A DNA stretch of 64,000 bases from Candidatus Bathyarchaeia archaeon. Lineage in GTDB: Archaea > Thermoproteota > Bathyarchaeia > 40CM-2-53-6. A program made the position numbers and the translations under genes. Below the pieces are notes generated by a model. It did no database searches. It had not been told where the DNA came from and saw only the letters and a program-made list of their open reading frames with translations. Numbering within the stretch: the first letter of the stretch is position 1; every line of letters begins with the position of its first letter. Positions 2,872 to 23,471 of the stretch are shown here, one piece after another. The DNA is taken from positions 832,001 through 896,000 of the forward strand of contig JBEKFP010000001.1 in assembly GCA_050013255.1 (NCBI GenBank), in the 5' to 3' direction.

Positions 2872-3663
2872 ATGCCATTGATCAGTTTGCTCACTGATTT
2901 TGGGTCGTTAGATCCTTTTGTCGGTGAGATGAAGGCAGTTATTCTTTCAATTTGCCCTGAAACTAGAATAATCGACCTCACACATCAAGTACAGAAGTTC
3001 GACGTTCGATTGGGGTCTTTCCTCTTGGCTGGGGCCGCACCCTATTTTCCATCAGGGACGATTCACGTTGGGGTGGTTGACCCTGGTGTGGGGAGCAGTC
3101 GTCGTGCAATCGTGGTGCAGTCACGGCGTGTTGTTTATGTCGGCCCGGATAACGGGTTGCTGGTTCCCGCTGCGCAGCGGGAAGGGATCCTTCACGTTTA
3201 CGAATTAACTAATCGTTCTTTCATGCGGAATGAAATTTCCGCAACATTTCACGGAAGGGATGTTTTCGCTCCAGCTGCCGCGCACTTAGCTTGCGGGAAG
3301 ATGCCAAGGGAATGTGGGCCTGAGATTTCCGATTATATACGACCGTCCTATTCCCAACCCACGTTCGATGGCAAAACAATTACCTGCGAAGTCTTTCACA
3401 TTGATGGTTTCGGAAACATCGTGACCAACCTTTCAAATCACATCGAAAGGTTGGGGTTAAAGTTCGAGGATAAGGTTTCGCTCACATTCAAGAAGAAGCG
3501 GATTCCAGCACGTTTCGTCCGAACCTATTCAGACCTTAAGAGGAAAGAGTTTGGAATCCTTTTCGGAAGTCATGGGTTCCTTGAAATTGCCTGCCGCGAG
3601 GCCAGCGCGGCTGGTAAGGTTCGCGTTAAAATTGGGAGTGTTGTTCATGTCGGTGTCGTTTAG
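2872..3663 (+). CDS. SAM hydroxide adenosyltransferase (DUF62, fluorinase/chlorinase family)
   Basis: LLTDFG, VVDPGVGS, GPDNGLL, TFHGRDVFAP and IDGFGN motifs. Confidence 0.93.
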   Translation: MPLISLLTDFGSLDPFVGEMKAVILSICPETRIIDLTHQVQKFDVRLGSFLLAGAAPYFPSGTIHVGVVDPGVGSSRRAIVVQSRRVVYVGPDNGLLVPAAQREGILHVYELTNRSFMRNEISATFHGRDVFAPAAAHLACGKMPRECGPEISDYIRPSYSQPTFDGKTITCEVFHIDGFGNIVTNLSNHIERLGLKFEDKVSLTFKKKRIPARFVRTYSDLKRKEFGILFGSHGFLEIACREASAAGKVRVKIGSVVHVGVV

Positions 3664-11983: not shown

Positions 11984-12046
11984 CCCGTCAGGAAGACTGA
12001 GCGAACCGAAGTAACGGCTTTCGACCCAACGGCTCTAGGTCGGTTA

Positions 12047-12120
12047 GGGGTTCTGTTGACTTGTTAACTCGCCGATTTCATTAACTCGTCCGCATCGACC
12101 GGGCGTCTTTGAACTGGCAA
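12047..12120 (-). repeat. Orphan TnpB right-end/omegaRNA-like remnant
   Basis: Minus strand GTCGATGCGGACGAGTTAA...GAGTTAACAAGTCAACAGAACCC versus TnpB end GTCGATGGAAGCGAGTTAA...GAGCCAACAAGTTAACAGAACCC. Confidence 0.7.
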
Positions 12121-12127
12121 GGGGGGT

Positions 12128-12225
12128 TTGAGAACATTGTTGGCGCTAGTTGGTGGCGCTGCCGAAGTCGCTAAGCAGATTGAAGCGTACAATGCTGCGG
12201 GCGTAAGCTACCATGTACTGAACAC
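12128..12225 (+). pseudogene. Fragment resembling the C-terminus of an LLM-class oxidoreductase
   Basis: LVGGAAEVAKQIEAYNAAGVSYHVL with no upstream body. Confidence 0.45.
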
Positions 12226-12381
12226 CCAGCCGTGTCTTTACCTTCAGGACGGAAGGAGTGTGTGCGCGCCTGCTTGGTTGTTGATTTCAATATGTGGTGT
12301 AGTCTTATGGGGACAACGTGTTACTCGTCTTTGACGGGAGTGAAGAAATATGAGGACCGTCAGGGGGGTTGGGGCGGTGCC

Positions 12382-13212
12382 TTACTTCTTAGGTCCCTTG
12401 TAGGTCAGTACTCTACCCCACAGATCCTTTGTTCCCCAAATCCCCCTACGCAGGGTCTCCAAGTGAACAATCTGGCTGTGGTCAACGAATAAGTTCACCT
12501 CAGGGCCGTAGTTCTTGATGTACCAACCGAATACTTCAGGGTCCGCTGCCTCGAACATTACCTTATCCAACCCTAATGCGTCGATTATCTTTGGTGGCAC
12601 GTCGGTGCGCCAGGTCTTTACATTCTCTGTGATGCCTTCTGATTCAATCATGATCATGTAGGCGCCTGCGTCAAGGAAACGTTTCGCTTCCGAGATTGCC
12701 CAGGCTGGGTCCTTCGTTCCCTCAGCCTCGAGTTCTGCGATTGATGTGGCCCCGCCGGAACCGAACTGAATTCCCACCTCAGGCTTCGGCTTCAACCCGG
12801 CCTTCTTCACTAGCTCCACAAGTTGAACCCAATCGTCGACGGGTAGTGTGATGAAACCGCTGGAGATTTCGATAATGTCGAAGCCCACATCCTTACATTC
12901 CTTCACGTAGTGTTCCACGGCCTCAGGGCCCTGCGTCAGAACGTACTCAATCCACCCACCTGTCGAGACCAGCACGTTGTACCGGTGCGCCGTGTCGATA
13001 ATCTCCTTGAGCACGTCCCGTTTCATGAGGCTGAATGATCCGGCTGCGAACTTCAGGGCGTCCACGTACTCACCCATTGTTTCCAAAACATCTTCGAGGT
13101 ACCGCTTCCCCATCACGGTATAGTAGGGGCCGCGAATCTCAGTAACTCCTTTTGTTCGGGGCTTTCCAGGCCGTTCGTTCATTCTGATAAAGGAAAACGC
13201 TTTGCTACTCAA
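12382..13212 (-). CDS. comA: Phosphosulfolactate synthase (ComA) family protein
   Basis: KPR..G.TEIR, YVD.LKF..GS, IEISSG, MIESEGI, FEA and G.EVNLF motifs. Confidence 0.88.
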   Translation of the reverse strand: MSSKAFSFIRMNERPGKPRTKGVTEIRGPYYTVMGKRYLEDVLETMGEYVDALKFAAGSFSLMKRDVLKEIIDTAHRYNVLVSTGGWIEYVLTQGPEAVEHYVKECKDVGFDIIEISSGFITLPVDDWVQLVELVKKAGLKPKPEVGIQFGSGGATSIAELEAEGTKDPAWAISEAKRFLDAGAYMIMIESEGITENVKTWRTDVPPKIIDALGLDKVMFEAADPEVFGWYIKNYGPEVNLFVDHSQIVHLETLRRGIWGTKDLWGRVLTYKGPKK

Positions 13213-14621
13213 CGATTTGTCCCTCGTTTGGGGTCAGGAATATTTGCGAGCAGCTTCGTGAGATCTGTGACATATAGGTCTTCCATTTGATGCACACAAT
13301 CTACGATTTGTTTTCGCAGATTCTTGTCAACATAACGAGCGCTTAGGCTGTCAAATTTCTCCACCGCTCTCTCCCAGCGCATGGGGCGCGTGAAGAAGCC
13401 CTCGTAGTCCCGTTTCTCCTTCTCCACGATCCGCCCACCTTTCAGATGAACTATCAGGTGGGATGGCATTTCATTCGGAAATCTTTGACTGTAATCCTCT
13501 CTGGGCCTGACGGCGATTTTCTGCAGAAGATTCTGAACATCGCTTCTGGTGATTCTGTCGGGATAATATTGTTCAGGCATTACGGTTCCATCTAGAGTTG
13601 CTACGGCGACAATGTATGGGAGGCTATGGTCGGCCTCTTCCTTCGTTCGCACATGCTTCTTCTCCCCCTCCTCCCCCCCGCCAATTATGTTGTAGGCTAC
13701 GTCGAAGACCTCTATCTCGAGCTTCTCAATCTCCTCCGGCTTGAAGCCCTGTTCTTTCTTAAGCTCTAAGATGCCTTCAATCGAAGATTGGGAATGAACC
13801 TCGGCATTGTACTTCTTCAGTATGGTTCGTGTAACTCGTTCTAGATTCTCCTTCGACCAGTCAATATCGAATTTTCCCGCAATCGATTCCATGAAGCCTT
13901 TGTTTCCCTCAAAAACCTCAGGCGGCCCAGTGATGCCCCGCATGGCCAAGAATCCAGCGTGGGTGGCGCCGAAGCCGGTAAAGGGGTAGGCTAACCCTTT
14001 CCAGTGTGAAAGTTTCCCTGTGCGCGTTACCCTAAGCGCATTGAGCGCCGTGCCGCTGATTGCGATCGCATTCGCCGTCTTCTCAACATCTAAGCCCAAG
14101 GCTTTGGAGACTCCTGCGGCTGCGGCGTAGGATCCCTGTGTTGTGTGGTCGAAGCCTTTGCTTCGGACTGGGGCTACGTCGCTGAGGCGGCATTGCACTT
14201 GGTAGGATACAGCTAGTGCGAGCAGGAAATCGCTTCCCTTCGCTTTCGCGTATTCTGACGCGGCTAGCACGGCGCCAACGTTATCGTTCGGATGGCAGGT
14301 CTCCCCCTTGGCTAGGTAGCTGTCGTTGAAGTCCAAATAGCGGATTAATGCTCCATTGTATAGTGCGGCGAGGTCTGGGGCCGTCTTTCCTCCGCCAATA
14401 AGTGTGCAGTGCGGTTTCCCACCAAAATCATCAAGCTGCGCTTGGAGCATTCGGATTGGTTCGCCTTCGAGGGCGCCTATTGCACAACCGAGCGCGTCCA
14501 GCACTCGAATTTTTAGCTCCTGCTTGGCCGCAGGGGACAATACTTGGAAAGTGGTTCCAACTACGAACTGGGCAAGTTCGTGGACGAGGGTTCTCTGTTC
14601 TGGCAAGTTTCGGGTCGCCAA
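13209..14621 (-). CDS. MmgE/PrpD family protein (2-methylcitrate dehydratase-like)
   Basis: RYLDFNDSY, HPNDN, GFDHTT, WKGLA and ADHSLPY motifs. Confidence 0.92.
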   Translation of the reverse strand: MATRNLPEQRTLVHELAQFVVGTTFQVLSPAAKQELKIRVLDALGCAIGALEGEPIRMLQAQLDDFGGKPHCTLIGGGKTAPDLAALYNGALIRYLDFNDSYLAKGETCHPNDNVGAVLAASEYAKAKGSDFLLALAVSYQVQCRLSDVAPVRSKGFDHTTQGSYAAAAGVSKALGLDVEKTANAIAISGTALNALRVTRTGKLSHWKGLAYPFTGFGATHAGFLAMRGITGPPEVFEGNKGFMESIAGKFDIDWSKENLERVTRTILKKYNAEVHSQSSIEGILELKKEQGFKPEEIEKLEIEVFDVAYNIIGGGEEGEKKHVRTKEEADHSLPYIVAVATLDGTVMPEQYYPDRITRSDVQNLLQKIAVRPREDYSQRFPNEMPSHLIVHLKGGRIVEKEKRDYEGFFTRPMRWERAVEKFDSLSARYVDKNLRKQIVDCVHQMEDLYVTDLTKLLANIPDPKRGTNR

Positions 14622-14744
14622 CAGTTATTTGCCCTCATCTATGTTTGTTACTTTTCGGTTGGGCGGTGTATAACATATGCTAGGCATCAATTCTGCGCGT
14701 TCGCTTTGACTTCAACGGTGGTCTGAACAGGCCTTACTGGTTTG

Positions 14745-14876
14745 CTATGTCTTGCCGCACGTTTTCTCATGCTCTGTTAGGCAGGCTTCGCACATAGTGT
14801 TTCCGCAGCTCTTGCACATTTTGAGCGGGCCTTCTAGTGGTTGGCCGCAGAAGCCACAATAACTACCCGAGAACAA
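14745..14876 (-). CDS. 43-aa zinc-finger microprotein MFSGSYCGFCGQPLEGPLKMCKSCGNTMCEACLTEHEKTCGKT
   Basis: Three CxxC plus HxxxC; AAGGAG RBS; below the ORF-track cutoff. Confidence 0.75.
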   Translation of the reverse strand: MFSGSYCGFCGQPLEGPLKMCKSCGNTMCEACLTEHEKTCGKT

Positions 14877-15126
14877 ATCGCAACTCCTTCGAAAATCAAC
14901 GGTTATGATTTAGGCCTAATAACCTGCCTTTTAGTCGCGGCAAAAACAGCTGAGGTCGATTTTTCGTGTTCTAAACCCCCTGTCTGTTAGGAAACAGGCC
15001 ATTTGTTGCCTTCGTTTGGCACCGTTTGGCACCACCCCTTGATGGGTGGATCCACCCTAGCCTATGCCTCTAGAACGCAACAGAACCGTTGCCAAGGGCC
15101 TGTGGAGAATTGAGGGGTTGAGTTGA

Positions 15127-15399
15127 TTAGGGTCTGGTTTTTCGGCTCACCCAAAGAATCGAATCGTCCCGCATATTTCTTATCTCCAAGATTCTATGAA
15201 ACGGGATCAATGATTCTTCACCCGCAGAATCTTCCTGTATTGTAAAATAGGATTTGCCAAGGGTTCGAATATTGGATGCGTTAACTTGTTTCGTGTCGCC
15301 TGGCGCGCCCCTGTGGCGGTATGTGATGACGTAATCCTCAGGGTTCTCTTTCTCGTCCCAGCGCAGCCTGTTGAGAATATTCCTGAGAGGGTGAACCAT
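15127..15399 (-). CDS. DUF504/MJ1316-type RNA-repair-associated domain protein
   Basis: LNRLRWD, Y.HRGAP and IPFHRI motifs. Confidence 0.85.
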   Translation of the reverse strand: MVHPLRNILNRLRWDEKENPEDYVITYRHRGAPGDTKQVNASNIRTLGKSYFTIQEDSAGEESLIPFHRILEIRNMRDDSILWVSRKTRP

Positions 15400-15526
15400 A
15401 GGCCACGTTCAGCTTTACGTATGGCTAGCTTAGGTGTTGGTGTTGTAGATATTGGTCTCGAAATTGGTTGCTGTCAAGTCAGCTTAAAGCCCCCACTGGC
15501 GCAGGGGTTGTTGGGATTCGAAAACG

Positions 15527-15943
15527 TTGGCTAGCCAGAAACTTCTTGATATGTTGAACAAAGCAATTGCTGGGGAGCTTCAAGCCATAATTCAGTACAT
15601 GTGGCAGCATATCCAGTGGAAAGGAATTGAGCACTACGCGGTCAGCAAGGGATTCGAGGAGACCGCGATGGACGAAATGAAGCATGCCGAGAAGATTGCG
15701 GAGAGGCTCTGGTACTTGGGAGCAAAGCCAACAATCCAACCCGCCCCCATCTTCGTTGGAAACACCCTCGAAGAAATGATTCAATCCGACGTCAAAGCAG
15801 AGCTAGAAACAATTGTGCTGTACAAGGAAATCATGGAACAGGCACAAAAAGAAGGCGACGTGGCCACAAAAGAGATCTTTGAAGAGATAGAAGAGGACGA
15901 AGAAGAACACCACGACTTCTTCTCAAGCCTCCTAGAAAAATAA
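15527..15943 (+). CDS. Bacterioferritin/ferritin-like di-iron protein
   Basis: ELQAIIQY, DEMKHAE and DEEEH ExxH motifs. Confidence 0.9.
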   Translation: MASQKLLDMLNKAIAGELQAIIQYMWQHIQWKGIEHYAVSKGFEETAMDEMKHAEKIAERLWYLGAKPTIQPAPIFVGNTLEEMIQSDVKAELETIVLYKEIMEQAQKEGDVATKEIFEEIEEDEEEHHDFFSSLLEK

Positions 15944-16056
15944 AGCGCTACTTTTCCCGGCAAGCTACCTCTTGAGGTTCCTCCAAACCGGTTCCCGCAA
16001 AGTTTGTCTTGGGACGTCATCGACGATAACCCAACTAGTTTTCGCGTCGCGAGAGT

Positions 16057-16878
16057 TCAATGGCGTCTGAAGAACGCAGCTATCTCTTCGCTGGCGTCAA
16101 GGTTCCGGCTAGTTTTGCCGATTATTCTTTCTGGCAAGTATTGCCAGCCTCCAGGCCACGTATGGCCGCCACCTTCGATAACGTACATGATTACCTCCGT
16201 ATTGCCCGGGCACTGGGTGAAATTCTCAACGCGGACACGGGTTGAGTCCTCGCTTCGAATTGGTAAATGTTGGATAGTTGGAGTGAGGGCGCAACCATTC
16301 AACTGGGCCCACTTAACCGCCGAGTTATGGGCCGACAATATTTCTCTCCTAGCACCCGCTCTGACACGCCCTCCATCAAATGGCACGAGTGGGTCATTTG
16401 TCCCATGAATCATCATAACCGAGACGGGTTTGCTTATCACCCGAGTTTCGGCTAGTGACGCTTGCATTGTGGCAGCAACCGTGGCGATCGCACTTATCCT
16501 CTCGGGGAATTCGATTGCCAGCCGTTGCGAGAAGAAACCGCCGTTCGAAATGCCAACCGCGTAAACCTTGCTCGGATCGATCGCATTCGTATTAGTTAGC
16601 CGTTCGATAAGTACCGAGATGAAGGCGAGGTCGTCAACGCCCTTAGGGCCTGTGTCGGGCGTGTCGGTCCAATGCCTACCATAACCATCAGCGTACGCGA
16701 CCACAAAACCGTCCCGGTCGGCGATATGGTTGAAACGGGTCAAGATAGGCATGCCTTTTGCTCTTCCGCCTCCCCCGTGAAATGCAAGAAGCAGACTGTG
16801 GGGCTGAGTATTGTCGGGGCAGTGTACCAAGTAGGTTCTCCGAATATCTCCGACAAGGAGAGAATCAGCAAAGTCCAT
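16057..16878 (-). CDS. LpqC/PHB-depolymerase-like alpha/beta hydrolase
   Basis: FHGGGG, GISNGG nucleophile, HGTNDPLVP and GGGHTWPGG motifs; ATG at 16878 preferred. Confidence 0.88.
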   Translation of the reverse strand: MDFADSLLVGDIRRTYLVHCPDNTQPHSLLLAFHGGGGRAKGMPILTRFNHIADRDGFVVAYADGYGRHWTDTPDTGPKGVDDLAFISVLIERLTNTNAIDPSKVYAVGISNGGFFSQRLAIEFPERISAIATVAATMQASLAETRVISKPVSVMMIHGTNDPLVPFDGGRVRAGARREILSAHNSAVKWAQLNGCALTPTIQHLPIRSEDSTRVRVENFTQCPGNTEVIMYVIEGGGHTWPGGWQYLPERIIGKTSRNLDASEEIAAFFRRH

Positions 16879-16978
16879 GAATTGTCTGGAACCCTTCACG
16901 TGTAACCCCATCCGAGGTGCCACAAATGAAGAAATACTTACCGCAAGCTTTTCTTCGAGAGGCCCACCTAGAACCGAG

Positions 16979-17095
16979 ATGGCCTTGTATCCTGAATCTT
17001 CCCGTCGCAATTGCCCCAAATGCGCCCGTTGCGGCGGATGCACGCAATGGTCAAACGGTAGATGGTTCTGCCTCTTCTGTAGAATCTACTACTGA
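16979..17095 (+). CDS. 38-aa zinc-ribbon microprotein
   Basis: CARCGG...GRWFCLFCRIYY. Confidence 0.5.
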   Translation: MALYPESSRRNCPKCARCGGCTQWSNGRWFCLFCRIYY

Positions 17096-17225
17096 GCGTT
17101 GGTTTGGTGTTCGGTTCTGTTGGGTTGGGATGTGTTTTGCATCAACCTTTGGGTGTGACTAGGTTTGGGAGTTGCAATACCTTATTAGTCCGCTTGCGGG
17201 GGGTTTCCCGAACTGGTGTTTCTAA

Positions 17226-17831
17226 TTGAGTGAATACTACCTTCCAGGCGCGACAACCGTCGGCATCGTCTGCAAAGACGGCGTAATATTGGCGGCCGAA
17301 CGGCGCGTCACATACGGATATTTCGTTATGAGTAAAAGCGGTAAGAAGGTCTTCAAGATCGCTGACAAGATTGGTGCAGCATGCGCCGGCATCGTTGCCG
17401 ACATGCAAATTCTAACACGCGAGGTAGGCGCCTACCTGAACCTCTACACTTACGAACGTGAACAAAGCGTCATGGTCCATACGGCCGCTAAGCTGATGGG
17501 TAGCATGCTCTTCGAGCGACGCTACTTCCCCTACATAACGCAAACAATCGTTGGCGGAATCGACGAGGGCGGAGCTAGGTTGTTCGTTCTCGACCCGTTG
17601 GGCTCAGTAATCGAGGACAAGTTTACGGCGGTGGGCTCAGGGTCGGAGATTGCCATGGGCCTTCTTGAAACCGAATTCAAGGAGGGCATGTCCATTGAAG
17701 AAGGGAAGGGCCTCGCACGGAAGGCTGTGAAGGCTGCGTCGGCGAGGGATATAGGTAGCGGTGAAGGCCTCGACATGCTCGTAATAACCAATACCGGCAT
17801 CCGCGAAGAACAAGAACTACCCGCCAAGTAA
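17226..17831 (+). CDS. psmB: Proteasome subunit beta
   Basis: GATTVGIV, AAERR, KKVFKI and GSGS motifs. Confidence 0.95.
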   Translation: MSEYYLPGATTVGIVCKDGVILAAERRVTYGYFVMSKSGKKVFKIADKIGAACAGIVADMQILTREVGAYLNLYTYEREQSVMVHTAAKLMGSMLFERRYFPYITQTIVGGIDEGGARLFVLDPLGSVIEDKFTAVGSGSEIAMGLLETEFKEGMSIEEGKGLARKAVKAASARDIGSGEGLDMLVITNTGIREEQELPAK

Positions 17832-21987: not shown

Positions 21988-22023
21988 CACAAACCCCTCT
22001 GAGCTGGTCATTATGCGAACGAG

Positions 22024-23281
22024 GGCACTGTTAACTTGTCGGCCTCATTGCTTTCAGCGACCTCTCATGCCTAAAAGAGGATGAAAGTTTAGGCTAAGTT
22101 ATGCGGGCTGTCAAGACAGTTCAACAACACTACAAACTCAACCCTGAGATTCTACGAATGCTTGACGAGTTCCGCCAGATGATGAACACCTGCACACGGA
22201 TCGGTTTGGCTGAGAATGTTACGAGCCTCAAGGCTTTGTCCCTGAAAGCATACAGGCAACTCGCAACCTACGACGCGATGAGCTACTACAAGTTATGCGC
22301 CATCAGCAGTGCGACCGGCATCCTGCGAAATTATCGGAGGACCGCTCGACATGGAGAGAATCCAACAACCCCTTATGTTCGGCGTTTGAGGTTGACCACA
22401 TGCTACGGATTCAAAATTAAGGATGGCTGCTTGCTGCTCCCGTATCATCCCAGGAAAGCAATCGGAATCCCTCTAACACCCCATGTTCAAGCAACCATTC
22501 GAAAGCACCCGGTTCGTTCGGTCACGTTGACCAAGGATAAGTTATCGCTGACATATGCGAAGCAGGTCGCGGAGGTCAAGCCGAATGGCTTCATCGGCAT
22601 CGATAGGAACCTAAACAATGTCACGTTGGCCGGCACGGACGGTTCGATCATGAAACATGACCTCTCCGACGCGACGCGGGTAAAGGCTACTTACCGTCAG
22701 GTTCGCTCCCGTATGAGGAGGAACGATGTACGCATCCGCCGCGAAATCACGGGCAAGTATGGCTGGAAGCAACAGGAGAAGGTGAATCGAATTCTCCATC
22801 AAGCATCCAAAATGATCGTGCAACAAGCCAAGCAGGGGGGCTTCGGCATCGTGATGGAGCAGCTCACGGGCCTTCGGAAGCTGTATCAACGTGGAAACGG
22901 CCAAGGAGGATGGTATCGCGGCCGGATGAACTCTTGGTCGTATGCGGAGTTACAACGTCAAATCGAGTATAAAGCCCGCTGGGAAGGTTTACCGGTTATC
23001 TATGTTCATCCGCATGGGACAACAGCGAAGTGTTCGATATGTGGGTCTCGCATGGCGAGAATACCCGAAGAGAACCGAACGCTGAAATGTCCGTCGTGCC
23101 GGGTGAGCGTAGACCGCGACGTAAATGCCGCCAGAAACATTCTGGAGAGAGGCGTGAGGTTCGCGCCAATCGCGCTTCCAGTTGAAGCGATGGTACAGGA
23201 ACCCTCCAGCAAGGTAATCCTGAAAGTCGATGGAAGCGAGTTAACGAGTTGAAGCCCATGAGCCAACAAGTTAACAGAACC
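22024..23281 (+). mobile_element. TnpB-only element with imperfect inverted ends
   Basis: 22024-22056 is an imperfect inverted copy of 23250-23281; flanks are CGAACGAG and CGAACAAG. Confidence 0.6.
22101..23252 (+). CDS. tnpB: RNA-guided endonuclease TnpB (IS200/IS605-IS1341 type)
   Basis: RuvC D (GIDRN), E (VMEQL), D (DRDVNAARNI) and CxxC...CxxC zinc ribbon are all present; no TnpA nearby. Confidence 0.95.
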   Translation: MRAVKTVQQHYKLNPEILRMLDEFRQMMNTCTRIGLAENVTSLKALSLKAYRQLATYDAMSYYKLCAISSATGILRNYRRTARHGENPTTPYVRRLRLTTCYGFKIKDGCLLLPYHPRKAIGIPLTPHVQATIRKHPVRSVTLTKDKLSLTYAKQVAEVKPNGFIGIDRNLNNVTLAGTDGSIMKHDLSDATRVKATYRQVRSRMRRNDVRIRREITGKYGWKQQEKVNRILHQASKMIVQQAKQGGFGIVMEQLTGLRKLYQRGNGQGGWYRGRMNSWSYAELQRQIEYKARWEGLPVIYVHPHGTTAKCSICGSRMARIPEENRTLKCPSCRVSVDRDVNAARNILERGVRFAPIALPVEAMVQEPSSKVILKVDGSELTS

Positions 23282-23290
23282 CGAACAAGG

Positions 23291-23298
23291 CTTTAATT
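23291..23298 (+). promoter_or_regulatory. TATA box of tRNA-Lys
   Basis: CTTTAATT about 30 nt upstream of the tRNA 5' end. Confidence 0.55.
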
Positions 23299-23327: not shown

Positions 23328-23465
23328 GGGTCCGTAGCTCAGCCAGGTAGAGCGGCGGATTGGGCATGTGTTTGCCAGGCCGAAGCTCTTAACAGCCTGA
23401 GGGAGACCCGAAGGTCGAGAACCACAACAGTGGCCGACAAGGTTCAAATCCCTCCGGACCCGCCA
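23328..23465 (+). tRNA. tRNA-Lys(CTT) with three introns (23359-23384, 23392-23405, 23420-23440)
   Basis: Spliced: GGGTCCGTAGCTCAGCCAGGTAGAGCGGCGGGCTCTTAACCCGAAGGTCGAGGGTTCAAATCCCTCCGGACCCGCCA, a full cloverleaf with encoded CCA. Each intron has a bulge-helix-bulge-like motif. Confidence 0.9.
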
Positions 23466-23471
23466 CTCCAA

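What the first reader, a model, noticed from the sequence alone, without database searches (positions are those of the whole stretch)
12047..17145. Dispersed orphan omegaRNA-like ends (G(T/C)GATG...AACAGAACC) in housekeeping intergenic gaps
Seen: the TnpB right-end signature recurs without any tnpB. The copy at 12047-12120 (-) is the best, with GTCGATG, CGAGTTAA and AACAAGTCAACAGAACCC. Others are ~15038-15087 (+; TTGATGGGTGGA...CAACAGAACC) and ~17113-17140 (-; GTTGATG...CAACAGAACC). Each is followed by a different flank that would serve as a different guide. With the two ends at 22.0 and 23.3 kb this makes five copies in about 11 kb. Inference: a distributed set of trans-acting guide RNAs or non-autonomous derivatives served by one TnpB; alternatively simple decay scars. 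The 15.0 and 17.1 kb copies are weaker matches.
Basis: partly seen in the sequence, partly recalled or inferred. Interest (0 to 1): 0.72.

Follow-up and report, generated by a model that had tools for sequence, protein, structure and literature searches.

The report
Transposon-end scars, not orphan guide RNAs
The repeated motif is the tip of an IS6-type transposon end; in this stretch it marks one broken-off tail of a TnpB element, one old miniature-transposon end and one chance match, and none of them looks able to make a working guide RNA.

Summary
The motif recurrence is real: the exact 10-mer CAACAGAACC occurs three times in 5 kb, against 0.18 expected. But it is not an omegaRNA signature. 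It is the outer tip of an IS6-family-type terminal inverted repeat (GG..CTGTT when read inward).

In this Bathyarchaeia genome such repeats, with 8-bp target duplications, box several kinds of element:
- the two TnpB genes;
- six omegaRNA-only miniature elements, all outside the window;
- two 3.1-3.7 kb elements that encode IS6-like DDE transposases.

An omegaRNA covariance model gives 81-152 bits for the eight real scaffolds. The three copies in the finding fare as follows:
- **12049-12116(-), 16 bits.** A 68-nt right-end stump of a TnpB lineage with no intact copy in this genome. It lies in a synteny breakpoint.
- **15005-15087(+), 6.7 bits.** The right end of an old IS6-type miniature element with no omegaRNA homology. 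A sister species keeps both ends, and the tip is mutating in one strain.
- **17113-17122(-), no hit.** Not conserved at the orthologous site, so most likely chance.

The scan had already recorded the TnpB/IS6-like element and the 12-kb stump elsewhere. Ordinary; low interest.

The parts
12049..12116 (-). 68-nt stump of the right end of a TnpB element (last omegaRNA hairpin region plus the inverted-repeat tip). A very degenerate extension may reach about 12174.
   Evidence: 34/36 and 15/16 identity to the right end of the intact TnpB element in locus L017, from another Bathyarchaeota genome. Alignment to this genome's right ends holds only from GTCGATG onward. CM R1 gives 16 bits, E 0.016 in the window and 0.64 genome-wide. 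Weak tblastn matches to TnpB C-terminal residues about 357-388 reach up to 12159. No partner repeat or matching 8-bp duplication was found downstream.
15005..15087 (+). Right part of an old IS6-type miniature element. It carries the dispersed 'TTGGCACC-box plus hairpin' repeat (core 15016-15060) and ends in the repeat tip at 15078-15087. The left end is missing here.
   Evidence: At the orthologous site in relative G004 there is a 169-bp unit whose 28-nt ends are inverted repeats, 23/28 matched. Similarity to the paralogue at C1:32755 stops exactly at the tip. CM R1 gives only 6.7 bits, E 4.2. In strain contig L051 three of the ten tip bases differ while the core is identical.
17113..17122 (-). 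Lone 10-mer in the divergent promoter gap between a hydrolase gene and the proteasome beta-subunit gene. Most likely a chance match.
   Evidence: No paralogue by blastn and no CM hit at E<=10. The orthologous G004 sequence aligns colinearly but has substitutions and a 2-nt indel inside the 10-mer and in the 'GTTGATG'.
22016..23289 (+). Reference copy: the intact 1258-bp TnpB/omegaRNA element. Left repeat 22024-22043, tnpB 22101-23252, omegaRNA scaffold 23142-23281. The 8-bp duplications at 22016-22023 and 23282-23289 match 7/8.
   Evidence: Pfam PF07282 at 77 bits and NCBIfam guided_TnpB at 127 bits. CM R1 gives 148.7 bits.

Best explanation
The shared 9-10 nt is the outer tip of an IS6-family-type terminal inverted repeat, not a mark of the TnpB guide RNA. 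In this Bathyarchaeia genome every TnpB/omegaRNA unit is boxed by such repeats, and most show 8-bp target duplications. Two larger elements that encode IS6-like DDE transposases have the same ends, and these enzymes presumably move all of the units in trans (inferred). The tip therefore turns up wherever any member of this element superfamily has landed or decayed.

Within the finding's span:
(i) 12049-12116(-) is the broken-off last 68 nt of a TnpB element. Its lineage has no intact copy in this genome. The clearly homologous 68 nt stop short of the 5' halves of the conserved omegaRNA helices, and the diverged sequence upstream offers only a weak candidate for one of them. There is no tnpB and no partner end. 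It sits in an intergenic patch that is a rearrangement junction relative to sister genomes.
(ii) 15005-15087(+) is the right end of an old IS6-type miniature element of about 170 bp. It never carried omegaRNA homology. Its left end has been deleted here and its tip is drifting.
(iii) 17113-17122(-) is a chance match.

All three are inert scars. Shown: the homologies, the model scores, the duplications and the cross-genome comparisons. Inferred: mobilisation by the IS6-like enzymes and the absence of any RNA product.
For: - **Tip identity.** The ends read GG[T/C][T/A]CTGTT. This matches the IS6-family consensus (GG tips, cTGTt) and the family's 8-bp duplication as described in PMC7986276.
- **Duplications.** 13 of 16 omegaRNA-bearing elements in this and other Bathyarchaeia genomes have 8-bp duplications with at most one mismatch.
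- **Transposases.** Two PF13610 DDE transposases lie in elements with the same tips and perfect 8-bp duplications, at C1:182371-185509 and C2:559197-562918. Their best NCBIfam hit is IS6. No Y1 TnpA was found in a genome scored 100% complete.
- **omegaRNA model.** 19 of 36 predicted pairs covary. The eight full scaffolds score 81-152 bits; the three copies score 16 bits, 6.7 bits and no hit.
- **12-kb copy.** Homologous to the L017 right end. No partner end was found. The region 11994-12380 has no counterpart next to either flank in G004, and the flanks lie on different contigs in G004 and G011.
- **15-kb copy.** The G004 orthologue has both inverted ends. The tip is mutated in L051.
- **17-kb copy.** Not conserved in G004.
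- **Guides.** The 16-nt flanks have no second perfect match in the genome, only about the number of 2-mismatch hits expected by chance.
Against: - Three exact 10-mers in 5 kb is far above chance, so calling one of them chance leans on a single sister-genome comparison.
- The CM's local alignment of the 12-kb copy finds a possible 5' strand for the main helix with 6 of 8 pairs. A crippled partial scaffold therefore cannot be excluded.
- The stump is identical in eight strain-level contigs. Those contigs are 99-100% identical throughout, so this says nothing about selection.
- There are no expression data.
- The IS6-like transposases score 115 and 102 bits, under NCBIfam's 125-bit cut-off, and no transposition was tested.
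Confidence: 0.85

Rival explanations
1. One reading: the three copies are orphan omegaRNA genes or mini-derivatives whose different flanks act as guides for the resident TnpB in trans.
For: The 12-kb copy keeps the last hairpin region and the exact scaffold-to-guide junction. omegaRNA-only elements served in trans are a known idea (PMC10055086), and six exist in this genome.
Against: CM scores are 16 bits, 6.7 bits and none, against 81-152 for real scaffolds. The 68-nt stump does not fold better than shuffles, z -0.31. The stump comes from a different TnpB lineage (L017-like, 62% protein identity) from either resident TnpB. No second-site targets were found. The 15-kb tip is mutating and the 17-kb string is not conserved.
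Confidence: 0.04
2. The 12-kb and 15-kb solo ends are still live DNA sites. They would be single IS6-type ends that the IS6-like transposase can bind, driving one-ended events, deletions or inversions around the comA-prpD block.
For: The two tips face each other across comA-prpD: inward-reading at 12049, outward-ending at 15087. The 12-kb gap is a synteny breakpoint. IS6-family members are known for rearrangements (PMC7986276).
Against: The flanking 8-mers do not match, so the block was not inserted as one unit. The 15-kb end is at the same site in G004, so it predates the breakpoint, and its tip decays in L051. The inner repeat sequences of the two ends differ.
Confidence: 0.06
3. All three matches are chance recurrences of a short A/C-rich word.
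For: Genome-wide enrichment of the 10-mer is modest, 15 against about 5-6, and most copies lie inside genes.
Against: The 12-kb copy has 68 nt of homology to a real TnpB right end. The 15-kb copy has a 28-nt inverted partner in G004, and paralogue similarity ends exactly at the tip. None of 100 shuffles reached three copies.
Confidence: 0.03

Closest known systems
IS6/IS26-family insertion sequences and their MITEs (Varani et al. 2021, PMC7986276)
   Same: GG tips with the CTGTT motif in short terminal inverted repeats. 8-bp target duplications. A DDE transposase with the PF13610 domain. Protein-less miniature derivatives exist.
   Different: The transposases here carry an N-terminal zinc-binding region and fall just under NCBIfam's IS6 cut-off, at 115 and 102 against 125 bits. 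Their elements are 3.1-3.7 kb and carry extra ORFs, whereas typical family members are about 0.8 kb. The same ends also box TnpB/omegaRNA units, which that review does not report.
DDE-transposase-associated TnpB branches and solo TnpBs with symmetric ends (Altae-Tran et al. 2023, PMC10691335)
   Same: TnpB within 250 bp of an inverted-repeat transposon end. Solo TnpBs surrounded by the ends of a transposase-bearing element.
   Different: The DDE partners named there and in a 2026 review are IS630, ISL2 and IS1031, not IS6. This concerns the intact element at 22-23 kb, not the three orphan copies.
PATE-like omegaRNA-only non-autonomous IS200/IS605 derivatives (Meers et al. 2023 preprint, PMC10055086)
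   Same: Protein-less elements that keep both ends and an omegaRNA and need TnpB in trans. The six miniature elements elsewhere in this genome fit that description.
   Different: The three window copies lack the scaffold. The ends here are inverted repeats with target duplications rather than IS200/IS605 hairpin ends, and the genome has no Y1 TnpA.

Membership tests
TnpB omegaRNA / right-end module | Matches the sequence-and-structure model of the lineage's omegaRNA scaffold | tested here: not met
   CM R1 (139 positions, 30 pairs): 12049-12174(-) 16 bits, 15046-15087 6.7 bits, 17113 no hit at E<=10. True scaffolds score 81-152 bits.
TnpB omegaRNA / right-end module | Sequence homology to a right end that is attached to an intact tnpB | tested here: inconclusive
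   Met for the 12-kb copy only, and only over its last 68 nt (34/36 plus 15/16 to L017). Not met for the 15-kb and 17-kb copies.
TnpB omegaRNA / right-end module | Lies at the 3' end of tnpB, or in an element that keeps a left end as well | tested here: not met
   No TnpB coding remnant beyond a weak C-terminal trace. No partner end or matching duplication within 6 kb.
TnpB omegaRNA / right-end module | The guide (3' flank) has a TAM-adjacent target | tested here: not met
   Only the flank itself matches perfectly in the host genome; the 2-mismatch hits are at the chance level. Viruses and plasmids of this host were not searched.
IS6-family-type element end | GG tip and CTGTT motif in the terminal repeat | tested here: met
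   All three copies read GGTTCTGTTG inward. The consensus is taken from PMC7986276.
IS6-family-type element end | Inverted partner end and 8-bp target duplication | tested here: not met
   None for the three window copies. The G004 orthologue of the 15-kb copy has the inverted partner (23/28) but no matching 8-mer. Met for the resident TnpB element and 12 other elements.
IS6-family-type element end | A cognate IS6-family DDE transposase in the genome | tested here: inconclusive
   Two PF13610 proteins are over the Pfam cut-off. Their best NCBIfam hit is IS6 but below the curated cut-off, at 115 and 102 against 125 bits. Activity on these ends is not testable here.

The most novel reading that the evidence does not exclude
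The six omegaRNA-only, IS6-type-ended miniature elements elsewhere in this genome, together with the two TnpB elements, would form a distributed guide set served in trans by TnpB. TnpB would then act as a homing partner of a DDE (IS6-like) transposon rather than of an IS200/IS605 element. The one-sided T-T-R just before the left-hand duplication (T at -2 in 12/13, purine at -1 in 13/13, no mirror on the right) would be its TAM. The window's stumps would be dead members of that set.
Probability: 0.4. Interest if true: 0.6.

Novelty: new member of a known kind. Interest (0 to 1): 0.22.

Why it matters
For this finding, little: two transposon-end scars and a chance match in housekeeping gaps are ordinary. 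There are two practical lessons.

First, in these archaea the string at the omegaRNA/guide junction doubles as a transposase-type inverted-repeat tip. Motif hunting for 'orphan guides' will therefore pick up any debris of the whole element superfamily, and a structure-aware model is needed.

Second, the check re-derives independently that Bathyarchaeia TnpB/omegaRNA units ride in IS6-like inverted-repeat elements with target duplications. That partnership is not among the DDE associations listed in the literature read here. It bears on what TnpB does for a transposon that may not excise.

Tried and rejected
- **Known RNA and tRNA scans.** Rfam at gathering thresholds found nothing in the window, so even the true omegaRNA is not a curated family. 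ARAGORN found no tRNA, although an intron-bearing tRNA is visible at 23.3 kb.
- **Partner ends.** I searched for partner ends with 8-bp duplications within 6 kb of every tip-like site. None was found for the three copies.
- **Left ends of the 15-kb type.** I searched for an inverted 28-mer upstream of the three genome copies of the 15-kb type. It was found only in the G004 orthologue.
- **Coding remnants.** tblastn of 120 TnpB homologues against the three gaps gave only a weak C-terminal trace at 12067-12159. Cys-motif noise at 14793-14870 turned out to be a separate 43-aa zinc-ribbon ORF.
- **Guide targets.** No second-site perfect matches in the host genome.
- **Folding.** The 68-nt pieces folded alone showed no excess stability for any orphan, z -0.31 to -1.29.
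- **Strain contigs.** Eight contigs were too similar, 99-100%, to read selection on the stump.
- **Composite transposon.** I considered 12049...15087 as one unit around comA-prpD and rejected it. The flanking 8-mers differ and the 15-kb end predates the 12-kb junction.
- **Not pursued.** Whether the TTGGCACC-box repeat is a casposon-related site, as earlier scan notes propose. I only confirmed that two Cas1 genes exist in the genome.
Full report
**Setting**

The window is G000:C1:832001-896000 of a 2.46-Mb, three-contig archaeal genome. Homologues of its TnpB are annotated as Candidatus Bathyarchaeia/Bathyarchaeota. The finding's span holds ordinary genes:
- comA and a prpD/mmgE-family gene at 12382-14621(-);
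- a ferritin-like gene;
- an alpha/beta hydrolase;
- the proteasome beta subunit at 17226.

An intact tnpB lies at 22101-23252(+) (PF07282; NCBIfam guided_TnpB at 127 bits).

Yes as strings. The exact 10-mer lies at 12049(-), 15078(+) and 17113(-). Three copies compare with 0.18 expected, and none of 100 shuffles reached three. With one mismatch the excess disappears. Genome-wide the enrichment is modest, 15 against about 5-6.

**What the motif is**

Listing every genomic copy with its context and searching for the 20-nt end of the TnpB element showed that the left and right ends of the element are inverted repeats of each other. A scan for 'tip, 8-mer ... same 8-mer, inverted tip' then found 8-bp direct duplications around several kinds of element:
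- both TnpB elements;
- five TnpB-less elements of 350-725 bp;
- two large elements of 3.1 and 3.7 kb.

The large elements each encode a DDE transposase with the IS240/IS6 Pfam domain. Their best NCBIfam match is IS6, though at 115 and 102 bits against a 125-bit cut-off. GG tips, a CTGTT motif and 8-bp duplications are the hallmarks of the IS6 family (PMC7986276). The genome has no Y1 TnpA.

TnpB elements from five other Bathyarchaeia genome assemblies show the same ends. Six of the eight carry 8-bp duplications with different 8-mers, which means independent insertions. So the 'signature' is an IS6-type repeat tip that happens to coincide with the omegaRNA/guide junction.

Fifteen right ends were aligned: ten attached to tnpB and five from miniature elements. 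RNAalifold predicted 36 pairs, 19 of them with compensatory changes. The last stem's 3' strand lies inside the inverted repeat. It changes together with its 5' partner, and in the two variant miniature elements the left-end repeat changes as well.

A covariance model of the last 139 positions was run with filters off over the window and then over the whole genome, with these results:
- Eight full scaffolds score 81-152 bits: two with tnpB and six without.
- The 12-kb copy scores 16 bits, E 0.016 in the window and 0.64 genome-wide. That is no better than bare left-end repeats.
- The 15-kb copy scores 6.7 bits, E 4.2.
- The 17-kb copy is not reported.

**The 12-kb copy**

Only the last 68 nt (12049-12116, minus strand) are clearly homologous. 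They are nearest to the right end of the intact element in L017, at 34/36 plus 15/16. The L017 TnpB is 62% identical to the window's, and no TnpB copy beyond the two residents was detected here by tblastn with the window's TnpB or by the Pfam TnpB-domain scan. So the stump is not a copy of the neighbour at 22 kb.

A weak protein-level trace of the TnpB C-terminus reaches about 12159. The 5' strands of the conserved helices lie outside the clearly homologous 68 nt. The CM's best attempt, in the diverged stretch upstream, pairs 6 of 8 positions of the main helix. There is no partner end.

The 388-bp gap that holds the stump has no counterpart next to either flank in the closest relative G004. 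The two flanks lie on different contigs in G004 and G011. The gap also holds another dispersed repeat at about 12264-12350. It is a rearrangement junction paved with mobile-element debris.

**The 15-kb copy**

It belongs to a different family. This is a core of about 45 nt with two 10-bp-phased TTGGCACC boxes and a hairpin with a variable loop. The family has 17 copies in the genome, several of them just after tRNA-like 3' ends. Three copies extend to the IS6-type tip, and similarity to the C1:32755 paralogue, the only one whose BLAST match covers the tip, ends exactly there.

G004 has the element at the same site with an upstream inverted 28-mer (23/28), which gives a 169-bp miniature element. 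The window copy has lost that left part. In strain contig L051 the core is identical but three of the ten tip bases differ. It is an old IS6-type miniature-element end, without omegaRNA homology, and its tip is decaying.

**The 17-kb copy**

It has no paralogue and no model hit. The orthologous G004 sequence aligns base for base but with substitutions and a 2-nt indel inside the motif. It sits in the 180-bp divergent promoter gap of the hydrolase and proteasome genes. Chance is the simplest reading.

**Guides**

The 16 nt after each tip match only themselves perfectly in the genome. Two-mismatch hits occur at about the expected rate of 1.3 per guide.

**How the live elements probably work (inference)**

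The IS6-like transposases would move any unit with these ends. TnpB with the omegaRNA of an inserted copy would recognise the uninterrupted allele, because the guide begins with the duplicated 8-mer. In the 13 elements with duplications, the base at -2 before the left duplication is T in 12 and the base at -1 is a purine in all 13. There is no mirrored pattern on the right. That one-sidedness is what a TAM would give and what a symmetric transposase preference would not. The miniature elements' scaffolds are slightly closer to the C2 TnpB's than to the window's.

**Comparison with the literature and earlier scan notes**

Known DDE-associated TnpBs have symmetric ends, but the families named are IS630, ISL2 and IS1031. 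omegaRNA-only elements served in trans are known for IS200/IS605.

Earlier notes of this scan had already described the TnpB/IS6-like element (e1-5579074), the 12-kb stump (e1-5579076) and the TTGGCACC repeat family (e1-5579082). I reached the first two independently before reading them, and my tests agree.

**Verdict**

The guide-set interpretation is not supported for these three sites, while the decay-scar alternative is. The finding is ordinary.

Noticed in passing
window 15016-15060 (and 16 other genome sites, e.g. C1:1165558, C2:423865, C3:103103): A dispersed repeat of about 45 nt with two TTGGCACC boxes 10 bp apart, then a CCACCCC/GGGTGG hairpin whose loop varies between copies. Several copies directly follow a tRNA-like 3' end plus a 30-nt hairpin. 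In strain contig L051 the core is identical while the flanks are about 88% identical. Earlier scan notes tie such repeats to casposon sites. I only confirmed that two Cas1 genes exist in the genome.
   Followed up: partly
window 14745-14876 (-): A 43-aa ORF with four CxxC motifs (a zinc-ribbon-like microprotein) in the gap after the prpD-family gene. It produced spurious weak tblastn hits to the TnpB zinc finger.
   Followed up: no
window 12264-12350: Another short dispersed repeat, with copies in G000 (C1:948213), G004 and G011 at 81-93% identity. It lies in the same rearrangement-junction gap as the TnpB stump.
   Followed up: no
G000 C1:182371-185509 and C2:559197-562918 (loci L001, L046): The two IS6-like elements are unusually long, at 3139 and 3722 bp. 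Besides the transposase they carry several ORFs with no significant family match (Pfam run only on the C1 element). The C2 element also has extra internal repeat-tip-like sites (about L046 148-167 and 3157-3170), which suggests nesting or alternative ends.
   Followed up: partly
G000 C2:479453-479506 (-): A second short right-end stump of about 54 nt, scoring 22 bits with the omegaRNA model. It lies 1.6 kb from the miniature element at C2:477462-477819.
   Followed up: no
window 23328-23467: A tRNA gene with long intervening sequences lies immediately after the TnpB element. ARAGORN did not call it. The TnpB guide flank (23282-23297) matches a repeat found at C1:107366 and C1:830070 at 14 of 16 bases.
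   Followed up: no
13 omegaRNA-bearing elements (window 22016-23289; loci L005, L008, L010, L013-L017, L023-L025, L029): A one-sided motif lies before the left-hand 8-bp duplication: T at -2 in 12/13, G or A at -1 in 13/13, T or A at -3 in 12/13. There is no mirrored pattern after the right-hand duplication. This is a candidate TAM.
   Followed up: partly
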